Virus record (IMG/VR): IMGVR_UViG_2645727539_000006 | Length of the DNA stretch: 18,011 nucleotides | Source of the DNA: a virus | Taxonomy: Duplodnaviria; Heunggongvirae; Uroviricota; Caudoviricetes | Direction: 5' to 3' (one strand) | Shown here: positions 3,507 through 17,907 of the stretch, piece by piece | Layout: the number at the start of each line of letters is the position of its first letter | Numbering within the stretch: the stretch's first letter is position 1 | The notes under the pieces: model-generated | Told to the model about the DNA's origin: nothing | Seen by the model: the letters and a program-made list of their open reading frames with translations, nothing else | The model's database searches: none | Translations under genes and position numbers: made by a program

Positions 3507-4535
3507 TTATTTCACCTGCACCACCACAAACTCATCCGGATCCGGCAGCACCATCAGCGGTGCGGACTGCGTCATGGTAAATTCACGGGCCGGATCGCCC
3601 ACAGTCAGCCAGTGTTTCGGATAACGGGAAGAAGCCACCACACCTTCGGACAACGCCTGCGCATCCTGAATGGCACCATAACAACGAATCCCATCTGCAG
3701 CCGTATTCCCCAGGACCAGCGTGCCCACCGGCAGATAACGTTTTTCGGTACCGTCCTCTGCCACATAAGACGTTTTCGCCACCACAATGGCCAGATCACC
3801 GTAATACCCTTTGAAAGACACCACCGCCCCCAGGTCTTTCACTGCCGTTTCGAGTTGTGAATTTGAGCCGCGACGGGTATCCAGTTTTTCGCGGAACAGC
3901 TTAAAACCATTCAGCAGACGCCAGACAGTACCGTCCATAATGGCAATATTCACAAGACCGCTGGCCTGATCGCAGTAAAGGTCAATATCATGCGTCGGAT
4001 CAAACGTATCACGGTCCTGCTCAGACCATTTTTTACCGTCGGCCTGCTCAATGTTATTTCCTTCAGAGCGTCCAAAATCCACCTCGACAGTATCAAACTG
4101 CTCCCCTTCCATGGTGTATTTGCCATACAGCACGGCATTCACCGCCTGCATTTCTTCCACCTGGACAATCGCATGCTCTTCCTGTTTGAGGTTATCGGTA
4201 ATGATACGCAGACGACGGTAGGCCGGGTCGTTCAGCTGAGCCGGATCTTCACCAGGAAGACGCTCAACCGCCTGCTGGTAATTAAATTCGTGTTTCGGCT
4301 TGACGTAGCCCGGACGTAACACGCGGGTTTCACCACCGCGATGACGAAGCACTTTTCCTTCAACAACCGGGGAGACATAGGCCGCCACCGGCGTTTTTCC
4401 GGTAATTTTGTCCAGCATCACCTCTTCGGTATGGAAATTCACCGTACGGCGGAAAAACAGCTCCAGAAACAGCGCACGAAATTTAACTTTTTGTTCGGTA
4501 TAACCGAGTAACTGGCGGGTCGTAAACAATCCCAT
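3507..4535 (-). CDS. E: major capsid protein gpE
   Basis: 342 aa, near-collinear with lambda gpE (341 aa): LFLELFFR, PGYVKPKH, EEMQAVNAVLYGKYTMEGE, KLDTRRGSNSQLETAVKDLG, TVGDPAREFTMTQSAPLMVLPDPDEF. Confidence 0.95.
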   Translation of the reverse strand: MGLFTTRQLLGYTEQKVKFRALFLELFFRRTVNFHTEEVMLDKITGKTPVAAYVSPVVEGKVLRHRGGETRVLRPGYVKPKHEFNYQQAVERLPGEDPAQLNDPAYRRLRIITDNLKQEEHAIVQVEEMQAVNAVLYGKYTMEGEQFDTVEVDFGRSEGNNIEQADGKKWSEQDRDTFDPTHDIDLYCDQASGLVNIAIMDGTVWRLLNGFKLFREKLDTRRGSNSQLETAVKDLGAVVSFKGYYGDLAIVVAKTSYVAEDGTEKRYLPVGTLVLGNTAADGIRCYGAIQDAQALSEGVVASSRYPKHWLTVGDPAREFTMTQSAPLMVLPDPDEFVVVQVK

Positions 4536-10704: not shown

Positions 10705-10808
10705 GGTCATGTCCGGTTTACATGTCCGTTTTTTGCACATGTCCGGTTCACGGACAGCCTGTTTTTATATTTTTCATATAGTTAACTTGCAGAGAAACCG
10801 GACATGGA
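10705..10808 (-). promoter_or_regulatory. candidate cosB: repeated CATGTCCGG elements between Nu1 and cosN (possible small-terminase binding sites)
   Basis: Plus strand carries CATGTCCGG at 10708-10716, CATGTCCG at 10721-10728, CATGTCCGG at 10738-10746 and an inverted copy CCGGACATG at 10798-10806, separated from the direct copies by an AT-rich stretch. Arrangement recalls the lambda cosB R-site layout, though the repeat sequence differs. Confidence 0.5.
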
Positions 10809-12203: not shown

Positions 12204-12641
12204 TTATTTTAAGCACTGCGTCCTGATGTATTCCTGCAGGTAGTTAACCTGCGCGGTTATCTTGTCGATTCCACCTCGGAGACGGTAATAATTGAGTTCA
12301 GCATCTGCTGTAAGTCCTGGGCTTTCTCCATCGCCCATGCTGCTGGCTCCGGTCGTTGACTTTGCACAGGTGGCGGAGACTTGCAGGCGCTTACGCCCAG
12401 CAGAAACATCAGCACGGAGACTTTCGATAGTCGCATTAGCATCAGCAAGCTCCTTTGTGTATCTGGCGTCAAGTTCTGCTACATCACGTTGCCGCTTCTG
12501 CATATCAGCGATGATGGATGTGGCTTTATCGCGCTGCTCTTTGTAGGCGATGGCGTTATCACGGTAAAGATTAACAGCCCATGACAGGCAGGCGATAATG
12601 CAGATAACCAGAGCGGAGATAATAACGGTTACCCTGCTCAT
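12204..12641 (-). CDS. Rz: i-spanin Rz (inner-membrane spanin subunit)
   Basis: From the ATG at 12639-12641: [23 protein letters not shown] (N-terminal transmembrane helix) followed by a charged, coiled-coil-like periplasmic domain; immediately follows the endolysin with an ATGA-type overlap. Confidence 0.8.
12257..12442 (-). CDS. Rz1: o-spanin Rz1 (outer-membrane lipoprotein), embedded in the +1 frame of Rz
   Basis: Embedded ORF with signal peptide [20 protein letters not shown] (lipobox-like VSAC) followed by a proline-rich mature peptide [16 protein letters not shown]; fully nested in Rz as in lambda. Exact start (12442 or 12436) uncertain. Confidence 0.65.
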
Positions 12642-13135
12642 TGTTGCCCCCACAAACAGACTTCACGCTCAATCTCGCGGCGAGTCATCAGCCCTTTCCA
12701 TTGCTTACCGCCAGCGTATGTCCAGCGCCGTAGCTGATCACATGCGCTTTTGATATCGCCCTGGTTTATTTTGCGAAGAAGCGTCGATGTTCTGAAATTG
12801 CCAGCGCCCACGTTGTAAACGAACGAGTAAAGAGCGCCGCGCGTTGTTTCCGGTATATCGACGTTGATGTACGGGTTAATTTGTCTGGCGACCGTGGCAA
12901 GGTCTTTATTCAGGAGGGCTTTGCATTCTGCTTCGGTATACGTTTTACCGGGCATGATGTCTTTTCCGGTGTGTCCGTGACATACAGTCCATACGCCAAC
13001 GATATCTTTGTATGGTATGTAGCTGACACCTTCCAGACCATCGTTACCACCTGGACCAGTGATGAGCACAGACGCTATGGCAACAGCCCCACCACCAATA
13101 GCAGCTGCAACAGCCTTGCGTAATGACGGCGACAT
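12638..13135 (-). CDS. R: SAR endolysin, phage-21 R21-type lysozyme
   Basis: 165 aa with an N-terminal signal-anchor-release segment ([20 protein letters not shown]) then [27 protein letters not shown]...[29 protein letters not shown]; near-identical to my recollection of phage 21 R. Confidence 0.9.
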
Positions 13136-13788: not shown

Positions 13789-15639
13789 TTATGCTGCCGG
13801 TGCATTTATCTCCAGCATCAGACTTTCTATCTCAACGCCATACGCTGCATTTTTTGTAACATCCGTCAGCGTCAGCGCATTCAGTCCCAGTGTCAGACTG
13901 TCTTTTATAACCTGGAATGCCGGGCCAGCCACTCCATTCAGTTTCGGAGTAACCGTGGCACTGCCGGCGGTGAACACCAGCTCCAGCGTCTGCCAGTCGT
14001 TACCGTAATCGCCGAACTCCCCCAGCTTCGTGTTTCCGGCTTTCCTGTGATGCATCAGATTCACTCTGCCGTCAGTGGTCTGAGTGAAGTACGACATCAG
14101 GAACGGATTACCGGTACCCGTCATCGCCACACCATCAGGAACGGGAGCATCCGTATACAGATAAATCCCCAGCCCGAACTGATTGTTGGTCAGTGCGCCT
14201 GACAGGCGGAACTTACAGGTCAGTCTGCCGCCCTGTGTCAGCAGGGTAATTGCGTCATCCACCGGATGCGTCAGGGACCAGGTTTTATTGCTCTGCTTGG
14301 TGATCTTAAATACACCATCTGACAACTGAATTCCGCCATCCTTAATGCTCCAGCCCTGCGCAGCAGCCTCTCCGGCTGCCGGCAGCAGGGAGATTGTGCG
14401 AACGGACGTATCTGCAGACGGACCCGATGGCGTGTTGCCGCCGGGCGAGGGTTTGATTTCCGGTGCCTTACCACTGATGAAGGCTGAGGTGCGCCCGGCT
14501 GCGTTCAGAATAGCGGTTGCCAGACGATCCGGAATAATGCTCCTGCGCGCCCATGAACTGAAATGTGTCGGGCGGTTTGATGATACCTGGTTTCCATTCG
14601 TTCTCGATGCCGCACCGTAATATCCTGATGCCGGAATATCCGGATCTTCTGCCGGCGCGTTAGTGGCGGTATTGACGCCGTTACCATCTGTCATGAAGGG
14701 CACAAAATAAACGCCCTCACTCTCCCTGTTTTTATACCCGCCGTACACGGTGTCGTACTGGGTAGCGTATGTATTTTTCCAGTAATACGTCGTGTCACCA
14801 CAAACCCACGGCACATCTGCAGCACTGCCACCATGGCACTGCGCGTTAAACACGGAGAGGTCAGCACGAAACTGTGTCAGCATGGCTGTAAACAGCGCAG
14901 GTTGCTGTGCGTGGGTGGCGGCGCTCATGTCAAACTCACCCTGCATCCAGCAGACGGCCAGCAGAACGTTTTTGGGATTTTTCTGCAATGCCGCTTTTGT
15001 GCGGGAAATCAGATCCTGATATAACGGCTTGCCCACCCCCCAGCGTGCCGAATCCTGACTGGCCCCCGTGGACTCGCTGAATGTCCCCTCCGCGCCCTGG
15101 GTAAATGCCGAACCACCACGACAGCATGGTACCAGCAGGATCCCCGCGTTATTCGGGATATACGGGAGCAGTTTTTTGGCAATATGTAAACCCTGACCGA
15201 CACAGCCGTACTGCCCTTTGCTCAGGTCAGCCCTCGGATGATTCAGCGTACTCATATCCTGCACATCATGCAGACAGTGGTCAGCCGGAATAATATCGTT
15301 ATATCTGCAGGCAGCCCCGCCCGGCGTCACTGTACTGCGGCGCGCCAGCTGTTTAATGCGCGGATCCGGAGCATCGTATGAATCCGGCAGCGGAAGCCCT
15401 TCACCGTAAGCCATGGCATTGGACTGCCCGGCCAGTACGATGACGTAGTACCAATCCGGCTCAGATGAAGGGCCGACCTGTGGCTCTCCTTCAATAGCCA
15501 CCGCCTGCATCAGTGTGTACGGCGTAATGGCAACCGGTCCGCCGTATGGCTGCCAGCCCTCTTTCAGTTTGTGTGTCAGCTTTTCCGCAAGGTCTGACGG
15601 CGACGCCGCCCTGACAACATCGTAATGTTTAATCGACAT
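13789..15639 (-). CDS. nanS-p: prophage sialate O-acetylesterase NanS-p-like protein (DUF1737 N-domain + SGNH/SASA esterase + C-terminal domain)
   Basis: 616 aa; N-terminal MSIKHYDVVRAASPSDLAEKLTHKLKEGWQPYGGPVA is DUF1737-like; YYVIVLAGQSNAMAYGE carries the GQSN catalytic-serine motif of sialate O-acetylesterases; sits just upstream of the holin as in Stx and other lambdoid prophages. GGGAG Shine-Dalgarno before the ATG at 15637-15639. Confidence 0.75.
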   Translation of the reverse strand: MSIKHYDVVRAASPSDLAEKLTHKLKEGWQPYGGPVAITPYTLMQAVAIEGEPQVGPSSEPDWYYVIVLAGQSNAMAYGEGLPLPDSYDAPDPRIKQLARRSTVTPGGAACRYNDIIPADHCLHDVQDMSTLNHPRADLSKGQYGCVGQGLHIAKKLLPYIPNNAGILLVPCCRGGSAFTQGAEGTFSESTGASQDSARWGVGKPLYQDLISRTKAALQKNPKNVLLAVCWMQGEFDMSAATHAQQPALFTAMLTQFRADLSVFNAQCHGGSAADVPWVCGDTTYYWKNTYATQYDTVYGGYKNRESEGVYFVPFMTDGNGVNTATNAPAEDPDIPASGYYGAASRTNGNQVSSNRPTHFSSWARRSIIPDRLATAILNAAGRTSAFISGKAPEIKPSPGGNTPSGPSADTSVRTISLLPAAGEAAAQGWSIKDGGIQLSDGVFKITKQSNKTWSLTHPVDDAITLLTQGGRLTCKFRLSGALTNNQFGLGIYLYTDAPVPDGVAMTGTGNPFLMSYFTQTTDGRVNLMHHRKAGNTKLGEFGDYGNDWQTLELVFTAGSATVTPKLNGVAGPAFQVIKDSLTLGLNALTLTDVTKNAAYGVEIESLMLEINAPAA

Positions 15640-15725
15640 CGAATTTCTCCCGTGTAGAGGAACAGAGTTAAAAAGCCGGAAGCGGAATCAAATCACAGGA
15701 TGACCATCTGCCAGTGGCAGGTCAT

Positions 15726-15752
15726 AAAAAAAAGGCTGCGCAATGCGCAGCC
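15726..15752 (-). terminator. strong intrinsic terminator between the cargo gene and nanS-p
   Basis: Minus strand GGCTGCGC-ATT-GCGCAGCC (8-bp GC-rich stem) followed by 8 T; unidirectional (A-run precedes it on the plus strand). Confidence 0.7.
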
Positions 15753-15937
15753 AGAACTCACAAGGAAAATGATAAAAGGAATAACACTAGTGATGTACGC
15801 ATGGCGCCTCCCGCTAAGTTCTGCAATGATCAAACAGAACTCGCTACGTGCCCTTAAAACTCGATCATTTAGCCCCTCCAAGGAGGATTCACCATGCGGT
15901 TGATTTTTTAATAAACAGTAAACAAAAAAGTCAAGAA

Positions 15938-16048
15938 TTATTCATTCTGTTCTTTCATCATCGGCCACAGCAATACCACAATGCCGCAGACCAGAGCGCC
16001 ATCAGTCAGTACCAACATTATCCTGCTGGTGAAATCCATCATCACCAT
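15938..16048 (-). CDS. hypothetical small hydrophobic peptide (~33-36 aa), below the ORF-track cutoff
   Basis: Minus-strand ATGGTGATGATGGAT...TAA reads M(VMM)DFTSRIMLVLTDGALVCGIVVLLWPMMKEQNE, a single predicted transmembrane helix with a charged tail. No convincing Shine-Dalgarno; could be non-coding. Confidence 0.2.
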   Translation of the reverse strand: MVMMDFTSRIMLVLTDGALVCGIVVLLWPMMKEQNE

Positions 16049-16181
16049 CACTAAAAGCAGGATCACAACAGCAAGCAGACACAGTTTATAAAACAATGTT
16101 CAGAAAACGCATTCAGCATGCCTAAGGTTCTATTCCTACGAATAGCCAACTTGCAACTTAAAATATTATTTATGCAGCCAA

Positions 16182-16922
16182 TTAAATTCTGGTCCTTACA
16201 ATATCAACCTGAAGATTCTTATCTTGTGCTGATTGATAAATGACAAACCTTTTACTACCTGCATTGAAAGAAGTAGACAAAACCAGACAATTATCATAAC
16301 GAGCAAGAACATAATACCAACCATCATTATAATTAATCATTTCATATTCTTTCTTAAACTGTGGTTTGTAATATCCTGTCAGAAATGAAAAAAGCCAAAA
16401 ATATGCCACAAAAGCAATCATCACAATCTCAAAAAAATGTTTTTTTATAAATGGCTTATCATAGAAGCATGATACCGATAAAAATCGCCCATAAGATCTT
16501 ATCGAAATTGTAACCGCCAGCGCAATCGCTGCTGACAGTAGCAAAAGAGGTACCTGAATCTTCTGTCTCAATATAGAAAACTCAATAATTGCCGGCACAA
16601 ACAATAATTCCACAGCAAAATAAAGGCGAAATACATTTAGCTCTTGCATAGAATGTTTTCTTTTCACTGCGAAAAAGAATACAACACCAATACCCCAACC
16701 GATAAGAAATATAGCAATGACGATAACTGCAAAAAATAAACTTCTGGCAACATCATCAACACCTGCACCTACAATCCACCATGGGAAGCCGTAGTAAAAA
16801 GAAGTACCCCATCCATAGAAATAAGCACTCCCCCATCCATAGAAATAAGCACTCCCCCATCCAAGGCATCCCATGTAGGCAATAAAAAGTGAAGAACTCC
16901 TGAGCAGCGCACCATCCTTCAT
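16182..16922 (-). CDS. unrecognised polytopic membrane protein with N-terminal Gly/aromatic tandem repeats (phage cargo gene)
   Basis: Long ORF (ORF track 16182..16964) in visibly AT-rich DNA; likely start is the ATG at 16920-16922 (MKDGALL...) preceded by GGGGTGG. Has GWGSAYFY-GWGSAYFY-GWGTSFYY repeats, at least four hydrophobic helices (e.g. LFFAVIVIAIFLIGWGIGVVFFFAV; VPLLLLSAAIALAVTISI) and a ~55-aa soluble C-terminus. No family recognised from memory. Confidence 0.55.
   Translation of the reverse strand: MKDGALLRSSSLFIAYMGCLGWGSAYFYGWGSAYFYGWGTSFYYGFPWWIVGAGVDDVARSLFFAVIVIAIFLIGWGIGVVFFFAVKRKHSMQELNVFRLYFAVELLFVPAIIEFSILRQKIQVPLLLLSAAIALAVTISIRSYGRFLSVSCFYDKPFIKKHFFEIVMIAFVAYFWLFSFLTGYYKPQFKKEYEMINYNDGWYYVLARYDNCLVLSTSFNAGSKRFVIYQSAQDKNLQVDIVRTRI
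16807..16863 (-). repeat. perfect 24-bp tandem duplication (plus part of a third copy) inside the membrane-protein gene
   Basis: Plus strand CCCCATCCATAGAAATAAGCACTC at 16807-16830 and again at 16831-16854, followed by CCCCATCCA; encodes the GWGSAYFY repeats. Confidence 0.9.
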
Positions 16923-16960
16923 AACCACCCCAATACAAGATGATAACATTGGCTTACAAC

Positions 16961-16989
16961 TCATAACAAAAGCAATTCAATGCCGTCAA
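16961..16989 (-). promoter_or_regulatory. candidate sigma70 promoter for the cargo gene (weak -10)
   Basis: Minus strand TTGACG (plus 16984-16989), 17-nt spacer, TTATGA (plus 16961-16966). The -35 is good, the -10 is poor. Confidence 0.25.
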
Positions 16990-17061: not shown

Positions 17062-17085
17062 AAAAAAAACCCACTCGGCAGCGGG
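17062..17085 (-). terminator. intrinsic terminator ~50 nt downstream of the Q-like gene (candidate tR')
   Basis: Minus strand CCCGCT-GCCG-AGTGGG (6-bp stem with one G-U pair) followed by 8 T. Confidence 0.5.
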
Positions 17086-17121
17086 TTTATACATTTTTTA
17101 CAACATACCAAATTTGCATGA

Positions 17122-17150
17122 AGTATATGGCTTTTAATCCAGTTTTGCAA
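17122..17150 (-). promoter_or_regulatory. candidate late promoter pR' overlapping the 3' end of the Q-like gene
   Basis: Minus strand TTGCAA (17145-17150), 17-nt spacer, TATACT (17122-17127); a -10-like TGGTATGTT lies in the early transcribed region (possible sigma-dependent pause); the predicted ~50-nt transcript ends at the terminator at 17062-17085. Confidence 0.35.
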
Positions 17151-17907
17151 TATTTTGCTGTAAAAATGCTGCCTTTTGTTTTGAACGTGTTCTCGTCACA
17201 AGCAATAAAGCATCACTATCAAGCTGTAGAAAAATGTGCTTCATTGCAACCCAGCGTTCAGTAAATGTCTCGGACCAGTTTTTTGTTGTCACTCCCACCA
17301 ATGATGCCAGTGTCTGGTATTCATAGGCCTCACGCCCTGCAAGTTCGCTCTTCACATCCTGTGCAGCCAGCCAGATTAACGTCTTCAGGCGATCCAGTGT
17401 CTTACCTGCAATTTTTCTGTTACTTAACAAATCTTTAAACTCGCTCCATGCCCATTGCGTTATGGTGACCTGATGCCCCCATCGAACGCTTTCGCTGTAA
17501 CACCAAAGCAACCATGCTTTCTGATGTTCATCGAGAGACAAAACCGCGCGGCGCCATGAAGAGGTTGAGAATTCAACCGGGCTGACCAAAGCAATGGATG
17601 AACCTTTTGCGTACGACTGCTTACCGGAAGTCGGCGTATTATCCAGCGTAATCATCTTGCCAGTTACCACATCCAGAATGCGCGGCTTCTTTCGTTTGTA
17701 TGTACCAGTATCAAATTGTGCATGCTCCTGCCAGGCTTCGAGCTGGCCTTTCGTTGCTCCGTTCAAGTCAGCAGTAGCTGCCATAAGTTGCTCACGAACA
17801 TACTGTAAATATTGGGTATTCATGCAGTAAATCCTTTCTATATTTTGGCATAATTCTTCAACATTCGGTAATCGTTCAAAACCGAATCGGGGAAACGACA
17901 TAAGCAC
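17134..17907 (-). CDS. putative late-gene antiterminator Q-like protein (assigned by position and size; family not confirmed)
   Basis: 229-257 aa ORF depending on start (GTG at 17905-17907, or the ATG at 17821-17823 with an AAAGGA Shine-Dalgarno, MNTQYLQYVREQL...). It is the last gene before the promoter/terminator module and the lysis region. No zinc-finger Cys pairs as in lambda Q, so it would be a different Q family (lengths near 250 aa occur in some prophage Q homologs, from memory). Confidence 0.4.
   Translation of the reverse strand: MLMSFPRFGFERLPNVEELCQNIERIYCMNTQYLQYVREQLMAATADLNGATKGQLEAWQEHAQFDTGTYKRKKPRILDVVTGKMITLDNTPTSGKQSYAKGSSIALVSPVEFSTSSWRRAVLSLDEHQKAWLLWCYSESVRWGHQVTITQWAWSEFKDLLSNRKIAGKTLDRLKTLIWLAAQDVKSELAGREAYEYQTLASLVGVTTKNWSETFTERWVAMKHIFLQLDSDALLLVTRTRSKQKAAFLQQNIAKLD

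What the first reader, a model, noticed from the sequence alone, without database searches (positions are those of the whole stretch)
16807..16863. Perfect 24-bp tandem duplication inside the cargo membrane-protein gene
A 24-bp unit is repeated twice without a single mismatch, with part of a third copy, producing GWGSAYFY-GWGSAYFY-GWGTSFYY. Perfect in-frame tandem copies imply a very recent duplication or an actively slipping repeat, which could vary the length of an exposed aromatic segment between strains.
Basis: seen in the sequence. Interest (0 to 1): 0.5.

Follow-up and report, generated by a model that had tools for sequence, protein, structure and literature searches.

The report
Rare slippage duplication in prophage membrane gene
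A perfect 24-base tandem duplication adds eight amino acids to the most conserved motif of an uncharacterised prophage membrane protein; it is a real, recent and rare copying-slip allele that has arisen several times in E. coli, not a hypervariable repeat.

Summary
Positions 16807-16863 hold 2.4 perfect copies of a 24-bp unit, in frame in a minus-strand gene (16182-16964), and encode GWGSAYFY-GWGSAYFY-GWGTSFYY. The gene is the first ORF after Q, the late promoter and its terminator in a lambdoid prophage. It belongs to Pfam PF27470 and RefSeq names it "STM1630 family"; its function is unknown.

The normal allele has 1.4 copies. All 682 complete E. coli genomes that carry the gene have it, as do phage 434 and every homologue examined. 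In that allele a 9-bp direct repeat, TGGATGGGG (the two GWG codon sets), brackets the 24-bp unit. The window's duplication and a reciprocal 24-bp deletion allele both join exactly at this repeat, which is the signature of replication slippage.

Exact-protein look-ups found:
- the +1 allele on 9 contigs;
- the -1 allele on 3 contigs;
- the normal allele on at least 1,944 contigs;
- no +2 or +3 allele.

The +1 allele sits on at least three prophage backbones. Each has a 1.4-copy relative that differs over 6 kb by 0-5 substitutions plus the 24-bp indel (one pair also a 1-bp gap), so gains and losses recur but stay rare. The site is an ordinary low-frequency slippage hot spot, not a contingency locus. 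The functional effect is unknown. Interest is low.

The parts
16807..16863 (-). The tandem array: two full 24-bp units (16807-16830 and 16831-16854) plus a 9-bp partial third unit (16855-16863). On the coding strand the unit is GAGTGCTTATTTCTATGGATGGGG.
   Evidence: TRF. 33-base self-match at offset 24, against 8-12 in shuffles.
16807..16815 (-). First of three copies of the 9-bp microhomology CCCCATCCA (coding strand TGGATGGGG, the Gly-Trp-Gly codons). The others are at 16831-16839 and 16855-16863. The ancestral allele has only two, 24 bp apart.
   Evidence: ancestral TW14359 allele: 9-bp repeat at 24-bp spacing. The junctions of the +1 and -1 alleles coincide with it.
16791..16862 (-). Codons for GWGSAYFY-GWGSAYFY-GWGTSFYY. 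The first GWGSAYFY is the extra copy, an 8-aa in-frame insertion in the family's invariant N-terminal motif.
   Evidence: Translation. In alignments A1-A4 every other family member has a single GWGSAYFY.
16182..16964 (-). Membrane-protein gene, PF27470 / 'STM1630 family' / phrog_1521. The maximal ORF is 260 aa. PGAP-style annotation starts at M6 (16949; 255 aa). The family-consensus start is M15 (16922; 246 aa, against 238 aa in the normal allele).
   Evidence: PF27470 recorded for this exact protein. Hydropathy.
17122..17150 (-). Sigma-70-like promoter (TTGCAA-17-TATACT) just downstream of Q, in the position of the lambdoid late promoter pR'.
   Evidence: Consensus scan only. The position is analogous to the annotated phage 434 module.
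17067..17088 (-). Intrinsic-terminator-like hairpin followed by a T-run, in the position of tR', between the late promoter and the membrane-protein gene.
   Evidence: A terminator is annotated at the equivalent place in phage 434.
17134..17907 (-). Antiterminator Q gene (Phage_antiter_Q).
   Evidence: Pfam E = 1.7e-91.
15938..16096 (-). DUF3927 small membrane protein directly downstream. It is annotated 'TciB' in phage 434 and accompanies the gene in every locus seen that extends past the gene's 3' end.
13789..15639 (-). SASA-family carbohydrate esterase (DUF1737 + SASA + DUF6645), the next gene of the late region before the lysis genes (lysozyme ORF 12638-13135).

Best explanation
The array is a recent in-frame tandem duplication made by strand slippage during replication, or by an equivalent misalignment between sister strands. 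In the normal allele the two Gly-Trp-Gly tripeptides of the conserved motif GWGSAYFY-GWGTSFYY happen to use the same codons. This creates a 9-bp direct repeat, TGGATGGGG, at a spacing of 24 bp. Misalignment of the second repeat on the first re-copies 24 nt, giving the window's 2.4-copy allele (+8 aa). The opposite misalignment deletes 24 nt, giving a 0.4-copy allele (-8 aa).

Both products exist in natural E. coli isolates. Both have arisen several times on different prophage backbones, and both remain rare tip alleles. The normal 1.4-copy allele accounts for more than 99% of copies.

The gene is a dispensable 'moron': the first ORF of the Q-dependent late transcript of a lambdoid prophage. 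It encodes a multi-pass inner-membrane protein of unknown function.

Shown: the array, the ancestral 9-bp repeats, exact junctions, reciprocal products, rarity, and several backgrounds. Inferred: slippage as the molecular route, and that the insertion is neutral to mildly deleterious rather than adaptive.
For: - **Array.** It is perfect and far beyond chance.
- **Ancestral repeat.** The ancestral allele carries TGGATGGGG twice, 24 bp apart (L012). Sister alleles that encode the same peptide have only 5-8 bp of repeat.
- **Junctions.** The +1 alleles (L002-L008) and -1 alleles (L009-L011) differ from the ancestral allele by exactly one 24-bp unit bounded by that 9-mer.
- **Complete genomes.** 682 of 682 complete E. 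coli genomes with the gene align at 90-95% identity. The best hit is 92.0% (277/301), which is one unit fewer. None has 2.4 or 3.4 copies. The apparent 99.9% match in OkiPb01675 is a 1.4-copy allele split by IS1.
- **Exact-protein look-ups.** +1 is on 9 contigs and -1 on 3. The ancestral protein is on >=1000 (capped) + 918 + 26 contigs. +2 and +3 are absent.
- **Matched backbones.** L003 (+1) against O157:H7 TW14359 shows 0 mismatches in 6000 bp plus the 24-bp gap. L009 (-1) against TW14359 shows 1 mismatch. L002 (+1) against UTAK-6 shows 5 mismatches plus the 24-bp gap and a 1-bp gap. The window (+1) against FHI_NMBU_03 shows 1 mismatch in 6012 bp. The backbones differ from each other by 0.7-2.3% in the shared core and are unrelated outside it.
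- **Within the O157 prophage.** +1 and -1 each occur on both states of a common SNP that splits complete genomes 296:229.
- **Family.** One motif copy is present in all homologues down to 11-15% identity.
- **Moron position and dispensability.**. Phage 434B lacks the region and is viable (PMC9119081).
Against: - The molecular route (slippage rather than unequal sister-chromatid exchange or gene conversion) is not distinguishable from sequence alone.
- The gene is nearly identical on all backbones, with one synonymous SNP 460 bp from the repeat. A single +1 event spread by short-patch gene conversion between co-resident lambdoid prophages therefore cannot be excluded.
- The counts come from exact-sequence look-ups. 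They miss variant alleles that carry any other substitution, and the denominator is capped, so the frequencies are approximate.
- The effect on the protein is unknown. The AlphaFold models are poor (pLDDT 56-60, and below 50 in the motif).
Confidence: 0.85

Rival explanations
1. The repeat is a contingency (phase- or length-variable) locus. Frequent slippage would tune the length of an exposed aromatic segment of a surface or membrane protein, under diversifying selection between strains.
For: Both +1 and -1 alleles exist and recur on several backbones, including both alleles on both major haplotypes of the O157:H7 prophage. Once duplicated, the array offers 33 bp of tandem homology and should be less stable. 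This last point is inference.
Against: - All 682 complete genomes have 1.4 copies.
- Variants are at most about 0.5% (+1) and 0.15% (-1) of contigs.
- There are no alleles with 3 or more copies.
- The 57-bp pattern is absent from IMG/VR, the GTDB representatives and the JGI metagenomes.
- The unit is 24 bp and in frame, so slippage gives no on/off switching.
- The motif is the most invariant part of the family and is single-copy everywhere.
Confidence: 0.06
2. There was a single duplication event, later moved between prophages by homologous recombination or gene conversion. On this view there are no recurrent independent slippage events.
For: The gene is 100% identical among most +1 loci, with 0-1 differences. 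Lambdoid prophages in STEC are mosaic and often co-resident: complete genomes have a median of 2 matching places each. Mosaic boundaries are seen within a few kb of the gene.
Against: - Each +1 locus has a 1.4-copy relative that is almost identical over 6 kb, including the immediate flanks.
- The reciprocal -1 allele also appears on at least 2-3 haplotypes, which shows that the site mutates repeatedly.
- L003 and L006 carry the O157-specific synonymous SNP inside the gene.
Confidence: 0.12
3. The extra unit is an assembly or sequencing artefact.
For: The window is a short-read draft contig, and tandem repeats can be mis-assembled.
Against: The identical allele is found in at least 9 contigs from separate assemblies. 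The 57-bp array is shorter than a sequencing read. A 1.4-copy genome contains no repeated k-mer longer than 9 bases at this site, so a de Bruijn assembler with k of 21 or more cannot create a spurious loop. This last point is reasoning, not a test.
Confidence: 0.02

Closest known systems
Phage 434 gene CPT_434_68 (UMO75332.1, 'putative membrane protein'), which is the same protein as E. coli O157:H7 EDL933 CP-933K 'unknown protein' AAG55113.1 / WP_001302581.1
   Same: It is the same gene in the same module: Q82-like Q, terminator, membrane protein, DUF3927 'TciB', then SASA esterase. The DNA is identical over the 301 bp tested apart from the repeat.
   Different: These carry the normal 1.4-copy allele (247/252-aa annotation). 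The window has one extra 24-bp unit.
Pfam PF27470 ('TfpB') / RefSeq 'STM1630 family protein' / phrog_1521
   Same: The window protein has the precomputed PF27470 hit, matches phrog_1521 at E = 1.3e-151, and shares the invariant GW.xAY.YGWG...G..WW motif, the hydrophobic helices after it, and a C-terminal region that a low-confidence model predicts to be beta-rich.
   Different: The function of the family is unknown. STM1630 appears only in lists, among genes co-regulated with SPI-2 and in motility screens (PMC2639726, PMC4534456). The origin of the label 'TfpB' could not be traced in the paper library. My recollection that TfpB is an ORF of the Moraxella pilin inversion region is memory only and was not tested. 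The window allele is the only family member examined with two GWGSAYFY units.
Slipped-strand duplications and deletions between short direct repeats (classical misalignment mutagenesis, e.g. the lacI hot spots; established knowledge, not looked up here)
   Same: Short direct repeats flank a short interval, and both the duplication and the reciprocal deletion are recovered with junctions at the repeat.
   Different: Nothing mechanistically distinctive was seen. Here the microhomology is created by a conserved peptide repeat (GWG...GWG) with matching codon choice.
Phase-variable tandem-repeat contingency loci of Neisseria and Haemophilus surface genes
   Same: A tandem repeat lies inside a gene for an envelope protein, and copy number differs between some isolates.
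   Different: There are only 1-2 full units. The 24-bp unit keeps the reading frame. More than 99% of isolates share one copy number, and there is no on/off consequence.

Membership tests
Slippage-derived tandem duplication at microhomology | Perfect head-to-tail copies | tested here: met
   TRF reports 100% matches over 2.4 copies.
Slippage-derived tandem duplication at microhomology | The ancestral allele has short direct repeats exactly at the duplication junctions | tested here: met
   TGGATGGGG occurs twice, 24 bp apart, in 1.4-copy alleles (L012, L018). The junctions are shown.
Slippage-derived tandem duplication at microhomology | The reciprocal deletion product is found at the same repeats | tested here: met
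   P0002 / L009-L011 lack exactly one unit.
Slippage-derived tandem duplication at microhomology | RecA-independent and replication-dependent formation | not testable with these tools
   This needs genetics (recA and dnaQ backgrounds, fluctuation assays).
Contingency / phase-variable repeat locus | Copy number is highly polymorphic among isolates | tested here: not met
   682 of 682 complete genomes have 1.4 copies. Variants are on 9 and 3 contigs, against at least 1,944 for the normal allele.
Contingency / phase-variable repeat locus | A long array of many units | tested here: not met
   The maximum observed is 2.4 copies. 3- and 4-unit proteins are absent from the 15-billion-protein collection.
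Contingency / phase-variable repeat locus | A change in copy number switches expression or reading frame | tested here: not met
   The unit is 24 bp, which is 8 codons, so all alleles stay in frame.
PF27470 (TfpB) / STM1630 family | Match to the family model | tested here: met
   PF27470 is recorded for this exact 255-aa protein and for nearly all homologues listed. phrog_1521 matches at E = 1.3e-151. The local Pfam and NCBIfam copies lack a matching model, so the Pfam hit is a precomputed one. RefSeq names identical normal alleles 'STM1630 family protein'.
PF27470 (TfpB) / STM1630 family | Conserved N-terminal aromatic/Gly motif, present once | tested here: not met
   The motif is present but partly duplicated. 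All 47 other full-length members in A2, and the distant members in A4, have one copy. This is an allele-level departure. It does not argue against homology.
Lambdoid late-operon moron | Located between Q/pR'/tR' and the lysis cassette | tested here: met
   Q, promoter- and terminator-like sites, and downstream lysozyme and Rz hits with a holin in the called genes of the locus.
Lambdoid late-operon moron | Dispensable for phage growth | not tested
   Literature only. Phage 434B had the ~5.5-kb Q-to-lysis region replaced by DLP12 sequence and forms plaques (PMC9119081). An IS1-disrupted copy exists in OkiPb01675.

The most novel reading that the evidence does not exclude
The 9-bp GWG codon repeat may make this site a recurrent +/-8-residue toggle in the invariant aromatic motif of a late-expressed prophage membrane protein. 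The rare 0.4- and 2.4-copy alleles would then be functionally distinct states, for example with altered membrane insertion or partner binding that affects lysis timing, exclusion or envelope properties. They would be repeatedly selected in STEC lineages rather than being neutral or deleterious lesions. After duplication the locus would become truly unstable.
Probability: 0.05. Interest if true: 0.45.

Novelty: new member of a known kind. Interest (0 to 1): 0.15.

Why it matters
It matters little beyond bookkeeping. The result shows that an eye-catching perfect repeat is an ordinary slippage product at a codon-level microhomology, and that the gene's normal state has one fewer unit.

Two modest points may be useful:
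- The site is a recurrent indel hot spot. At least three or four gains and two or three losses were seen, plus an IS1 insertion in the same 9-mer. It could serve as a homoplasic marker, which should be treated with caution in STEC prophage typing.
- The natural -8, 0 and +8-residue alleles fall in the most conserved motif of an uncharacterised and widespread prophage moron family (phage 434, O157:H7 CP-933K, STM1630 relatives). They form a ready-made allelic series for anyone who wants to test what this protein does.

Tried and rejected
- **69-bp query across the array.** It was meant to count duplicated alleles, but the tool joins overlapping pieces, so single-copy genomes scored 100% coverage. 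I replaced it with a 301-bp query, where the 24-bp gap shows up in the identity band.
- **The one 99.9% hit of the 1-kb query (H1, OkiPb01675).** It looked like a second duplicated allele. It is a 1.4-copy gene interrupted by IS1, whose target duplication mimics the repeat.
- **Exact 57-bp pattern scans.** Scans of IMG/VR, the GTDB species representatives and the JGI metagenomes found nothing.
- **Structure.** The AlphaFold2 models of the duplicated and normal proteins are low-confidence (pLDDT 56 and 60, with the motif below 50). Foldseek against PDB and BFVD gave no hit with E <= 0.001. afdb50 was unavailable. The PDB sequence profile search gave no hits.
- **Function.** There was no PADLOC defence-system match. 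The local Pfam and NCBIfam copies gave no family. Two profile searches and one exhaustive HMM search found only 'hypothetical' relatives.
- **Literature.** Searches for TfpB, TciB, PF27470 and the protein accessions gave nothing relevant. The TfpB hits are an Acinetobacter pilus ATPase or chemistry acronyms.
- **Sublineage idea.** I tested whether -1 alleles derive from +1 alleles within one rare O157 sublineage. The shared SNP turned out to be a common polymorphism (296:229 genomes), so there is no support for this.

Full report
**1. The observation**

Tandem Repeats Finder reports one strong array in the window: 16807-16863, period 24, 2.4 copies, 100% matches, no indels, score 114. The longest exact self-match at any offset of 10-60 is 33 bases, at offset 24, starting at 16807. 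Thirty shuffles of the window gave 8-12. The array lies in the minus-strand ORF 16182-16964. The reverse complement of 16791-16862 translates to GWGSAYFY-GWGSAYFY-GWGTSFYY.

**2. The gene and its setting**

- Upstream on the coding strand lies antiterminator Q (17134-17907; Pfam Phage_antiter_Q, E = 1.7e-91).
- Next come a promoter-like site (17150-17122) and a terminator-like hairpin with a T-run (17088-17067). This is the layout of a lambdoid late promoter pR' and its terminator tR'.
- Downstream lie a DUF3927 mini-protein (15938-16096), a second terminator-like site (15752-15734), a SASA-family esterase (13789-15639), then lysis genes (lysozyme and Rz by Pfam, a holin in the called genes of the locus) and lambda-like head genes.
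- The gene therefore occupies the 'moron' slot at the start of the late operon.
- The window is the contig JHSD01000187.1 of assembly GCA_001265815.1, reversed.
- The protein has no hit in the local Pfam or NCBIfam copies. It carries the precomputed Pfam family PF27470 ('TfpB') and matches phrog_1521, of unknown function, at E = 1.3e-151. RefSeq labels identical normal alleles 'hypothetical protein' or 'STM1630 family protein'.
- The same gene is in classical phage 434 (CPT_434_68, 'putative membrane protein'), in the same module. It is also in EDL933 prophage CP-933K.
- Phage 434B, in which the ~5.5-kb segment holding Q, the late promoter and the lysis region was replaced by DLP12 DNA, is viable (PMC9119081). 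The gene is therefore dispensable for lytic growth.
- Hydropathy shows four clear hydrophobic helices after an uncharged stretch rich in aromatic residues and glycine. That stretch contains the repeat.
- The AlphaFold2 models are poor (pLDDT 60 for the normal protein and 56 for the window allele, below 50 across the motif). They predict helices through the hydrophobic part and a beta-rich C-terminal region of about 60 residues. Fold and PDB searches found nothing.
- The function remains unknown. STM1630 appears in the literature only in gene lists.

**3. The normal state of the repeat**

In alignments of 23, 49 and 24 family members, reaching Salmonella, Yersinia, Klebsiella, Neisseria and Pasteurellaceae, the segment GW(G/S)xAYxYGW(G/A)....G..WW is the most conserved part of the protein. 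It contains a single GWGSAYFY unit in every sequence except the window's.

At the DNA level, a 301-bp query centred on the array matched 683 of 5,426 complete E. coli genomes. Of these, 682 fell in the 90-95% identity band. The best hit was exactly 92.0% over 277 record bases, which is 24 bases fewer than the query. No genome reached the identity expected for 2.4 or 3.4 copies. The three phage records behave the same way.

The one record that had looked like a full match to a longer query (OkiPb01675, 99.9%) is a normal 1.4-copy allele split by an IS1 element. The IS1 is inserted in the second 9-mer and has a target duplication CCCCATCC.

**4. The variant alleles**

Exact-sequence look-ups in the 15-billion-protein collection gave:

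| Allele | Protein form | Contigs |
|---|---|---|
| +1 (window allele) | 255 aa | 9 |
| -1 (lacks GWGSAYFY) | 239 aa (P0002) | 3 |
| Normal | 247 aa / 238 aa / 252 aa | >=1000 (counter capped) / 918 / 26 |
| +2 and +3 (constructed) | 254-271 aa | absent |

The 57-bp array is absent from IMG/VR, the GTDB species representatives and the JGI metagenomes. The +1 and -1 alleles are therefore real, since they occur in multiple independent assemblies. They are also rare: at most about 0.5% and 0.15% of contigs that carry an otherwise identical protein. These counts miss alleles with any other substitution.

**5. Mechanism**

In the normal allele the coding strand reads CTT GGA TGG GGG AGT GCT TAT TTC TAT GGA TGG GGT. 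The 9-mer TGGATGGGG occurs twice, 24 bp apart. The +1 alleles contain three such 9-mers and the -1 alleles contain one. The indel is exactly the 24-bp interval in each case.

A duplication and its reciprocal deletion, both bounded by the same short direct repeat, are the textbook products of strand misalignment at microhomology. That attribution rests on established knowledge. The route itself is inferred here.

Close sister alleles encode the same peptide with other Gly codons. The Escherichia sp. and E. albertii alleles (L016, L017) have only 5 bp of repeat at this spacing. The Salmonella and Haemophilus ducreyi homologues have 6-8 bp. The 9-bp microhomology is therefore an accident of codon choice in this allele.

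**6. One event or several**

The +1 allele lies on at least three prophage backbones:
- L002: an Antiterm-type Q with HNH and NinG genes upstream.
- L003 and L006: an O157:H7-type prophage with a DUF1441 terminase and a Gifsy-2-like head.
- L004, L005 (the window), L007 and L008: the SASA-esterase / lambda-head type.

For each backbone a complete genome exists that is almost identical over 6 kb but has 1.4 copies:

| Variant locus | 1.4-copy relative | Mismatches, besides the 24-bp gap |
|---|---|---|
| L003 (+1) | O157:H7 TW14359 | 0 in 6000 bp |
| L009 (-1) | O157:H7 TW14359 | 1 |
| L002 (+1) | UTAK-6 | 5, plus a 1-bp gap |
| Window (+1) | FHI_NMBU_03 | 1 in 6012 bp |

The backbones differ from one another by 0.7-2.3% in the 1.4-2.6 kb they share and are unrelated beyond that.

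Within the O157 prophage, +1 (L003, L006) and -1 (L009, L010) each occur on both states of a holin SNP. That SNP splits complete genomes 296:229. A third -1 allele (L011) sits on yet another haplotype.

The simplest reading is at least 3-4 independent gains and 2-3 independent losses. The gene itself is nearly invariant, with one synonymous SNP 460 bp from the repeat. Short-patch gene conversion between co-resident prophages therefore cannot be excluded as a way of spreading a single event. The existence of recurrent reciprocal deletions nevertheless shows that the site mutates repeatedly.

**7. What it is not**

- **Not a contingency locus.** It has only one or two full units. The unit length preserves the reading frame. 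More than 99% of copies share one state, and no longer arrays exist.
- **Not an assembly artefact.** The array is shorter than a read and recurs in independent assemblies. A 1.4-copy genome offers no repeated k-mer longer than 9 bases from which a spurious loop could arise. This last point is reasoning.
- **Not evidently adaptive.** The insertion falls in the most conserved motif of the family. Other lesions hit the same gene, including the IS1 insertion and copies annotated as frameshifted. The variants are confined to tips.

Its effect on the protein is unknown.

**8. Verdict**

'Recent duplication' is correct. 'Actively slipping, strain-varying segment' holds only as a rare, recurrent mutational hot spot. 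This is an undescribed allele produced by a well-known mechanism in an uncharacterised but widespread prophage moron. Interest is low (0.15).

The most novel reading that remains open is that the -8, 0 and +8-residue alleles are functionally distinct, repeatedly selected states. It has perhaps a 5% chance.

Noticed in passing
L001 3707-3740 and 4500-4515 (E. coli OkiPb01675, NZ_AP042478.1); equivalent to window 16855-16863: An IS1 element is inserted exactly in the second copy of the 9-bp repeat (CCCCATCCA) of a normal 1.4-copy allele, with target duplication CCCCATCC. This disrupts the gene. It is the same 9-mer that bounds the 24-bp indels.
   Followed up: partly
L015 (phage 434, OL657226.1 39634-44910): Classical phage 434 carries the identical late-region module: LpxR, YlcG, Q82-like Q, terminator, this membrane protein, DUF3927 annotated 'TciB', and a SASA esterase. 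The variant 434B lost the ~5.5-kb Q-to-lysis segment and is viable (PMC9119081). The source of the name 'TciB' was not found in the paper library.
   Followed up: partly
L018 (JAIITD010000172.1, 3,054-bp contig of a 'Veillonella sp.' MAG): A contig binned as Veillonella carries a 94%-identical copy of the gene, with the E. coli-type 9-bp repeat. It is most likely mis-binned E. coli prophage DNA.
   Followed up: no
P0005 (Logan assemblies, 4 members), N-terminal 45 residues; equivalent to window ~16780-16940: The protein is read in two other frames through the G-rich motif and rejoins the true frame at PWW. This points to frameshifted copies, or to homopolymer read errors at the GGGGG runs of the repeat.
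   Followed up: no
L003/L006/L009/L010/L022, position +1758 from the gene start (holin gene): A C/T SNP in the holin of the O157:H7 prophage splits complete genomes about 296:229. +1 and -1 repeat alleles occur on both states.
   Followed up: yes
window 15693-15881 (-) and 15734-15752 (-): A 62-aa ORF overlaps a strong terminator-like hairpin between the DUF3927 gene and the esterase gene. Phage 434 annotates a 'putative membrane protein' with a terminator inside it at the equivalent place.
   Followed up: no
window 4455-4481, 10708-10732, 14615-14645: Three weak two-copy tandem repeats (periods 12, 13 and 16; 80-91% matches; TRF scores 33-48). They are probably chance.
   Followed up: no
Family PF27470 outside Enterobacteriaceae (P0131, P0134, P0136, P0138, P0142): Distant members occur in Neisseria dumasiana, Actinobacillus, Gallibacterium, Avibacterium and Pasteurella. 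All are annotated as hypothetical. Only 73 representatives exist at 50% identity among 1.84 billion proteins, so the family is small and host-associated.
   Followed up: partly
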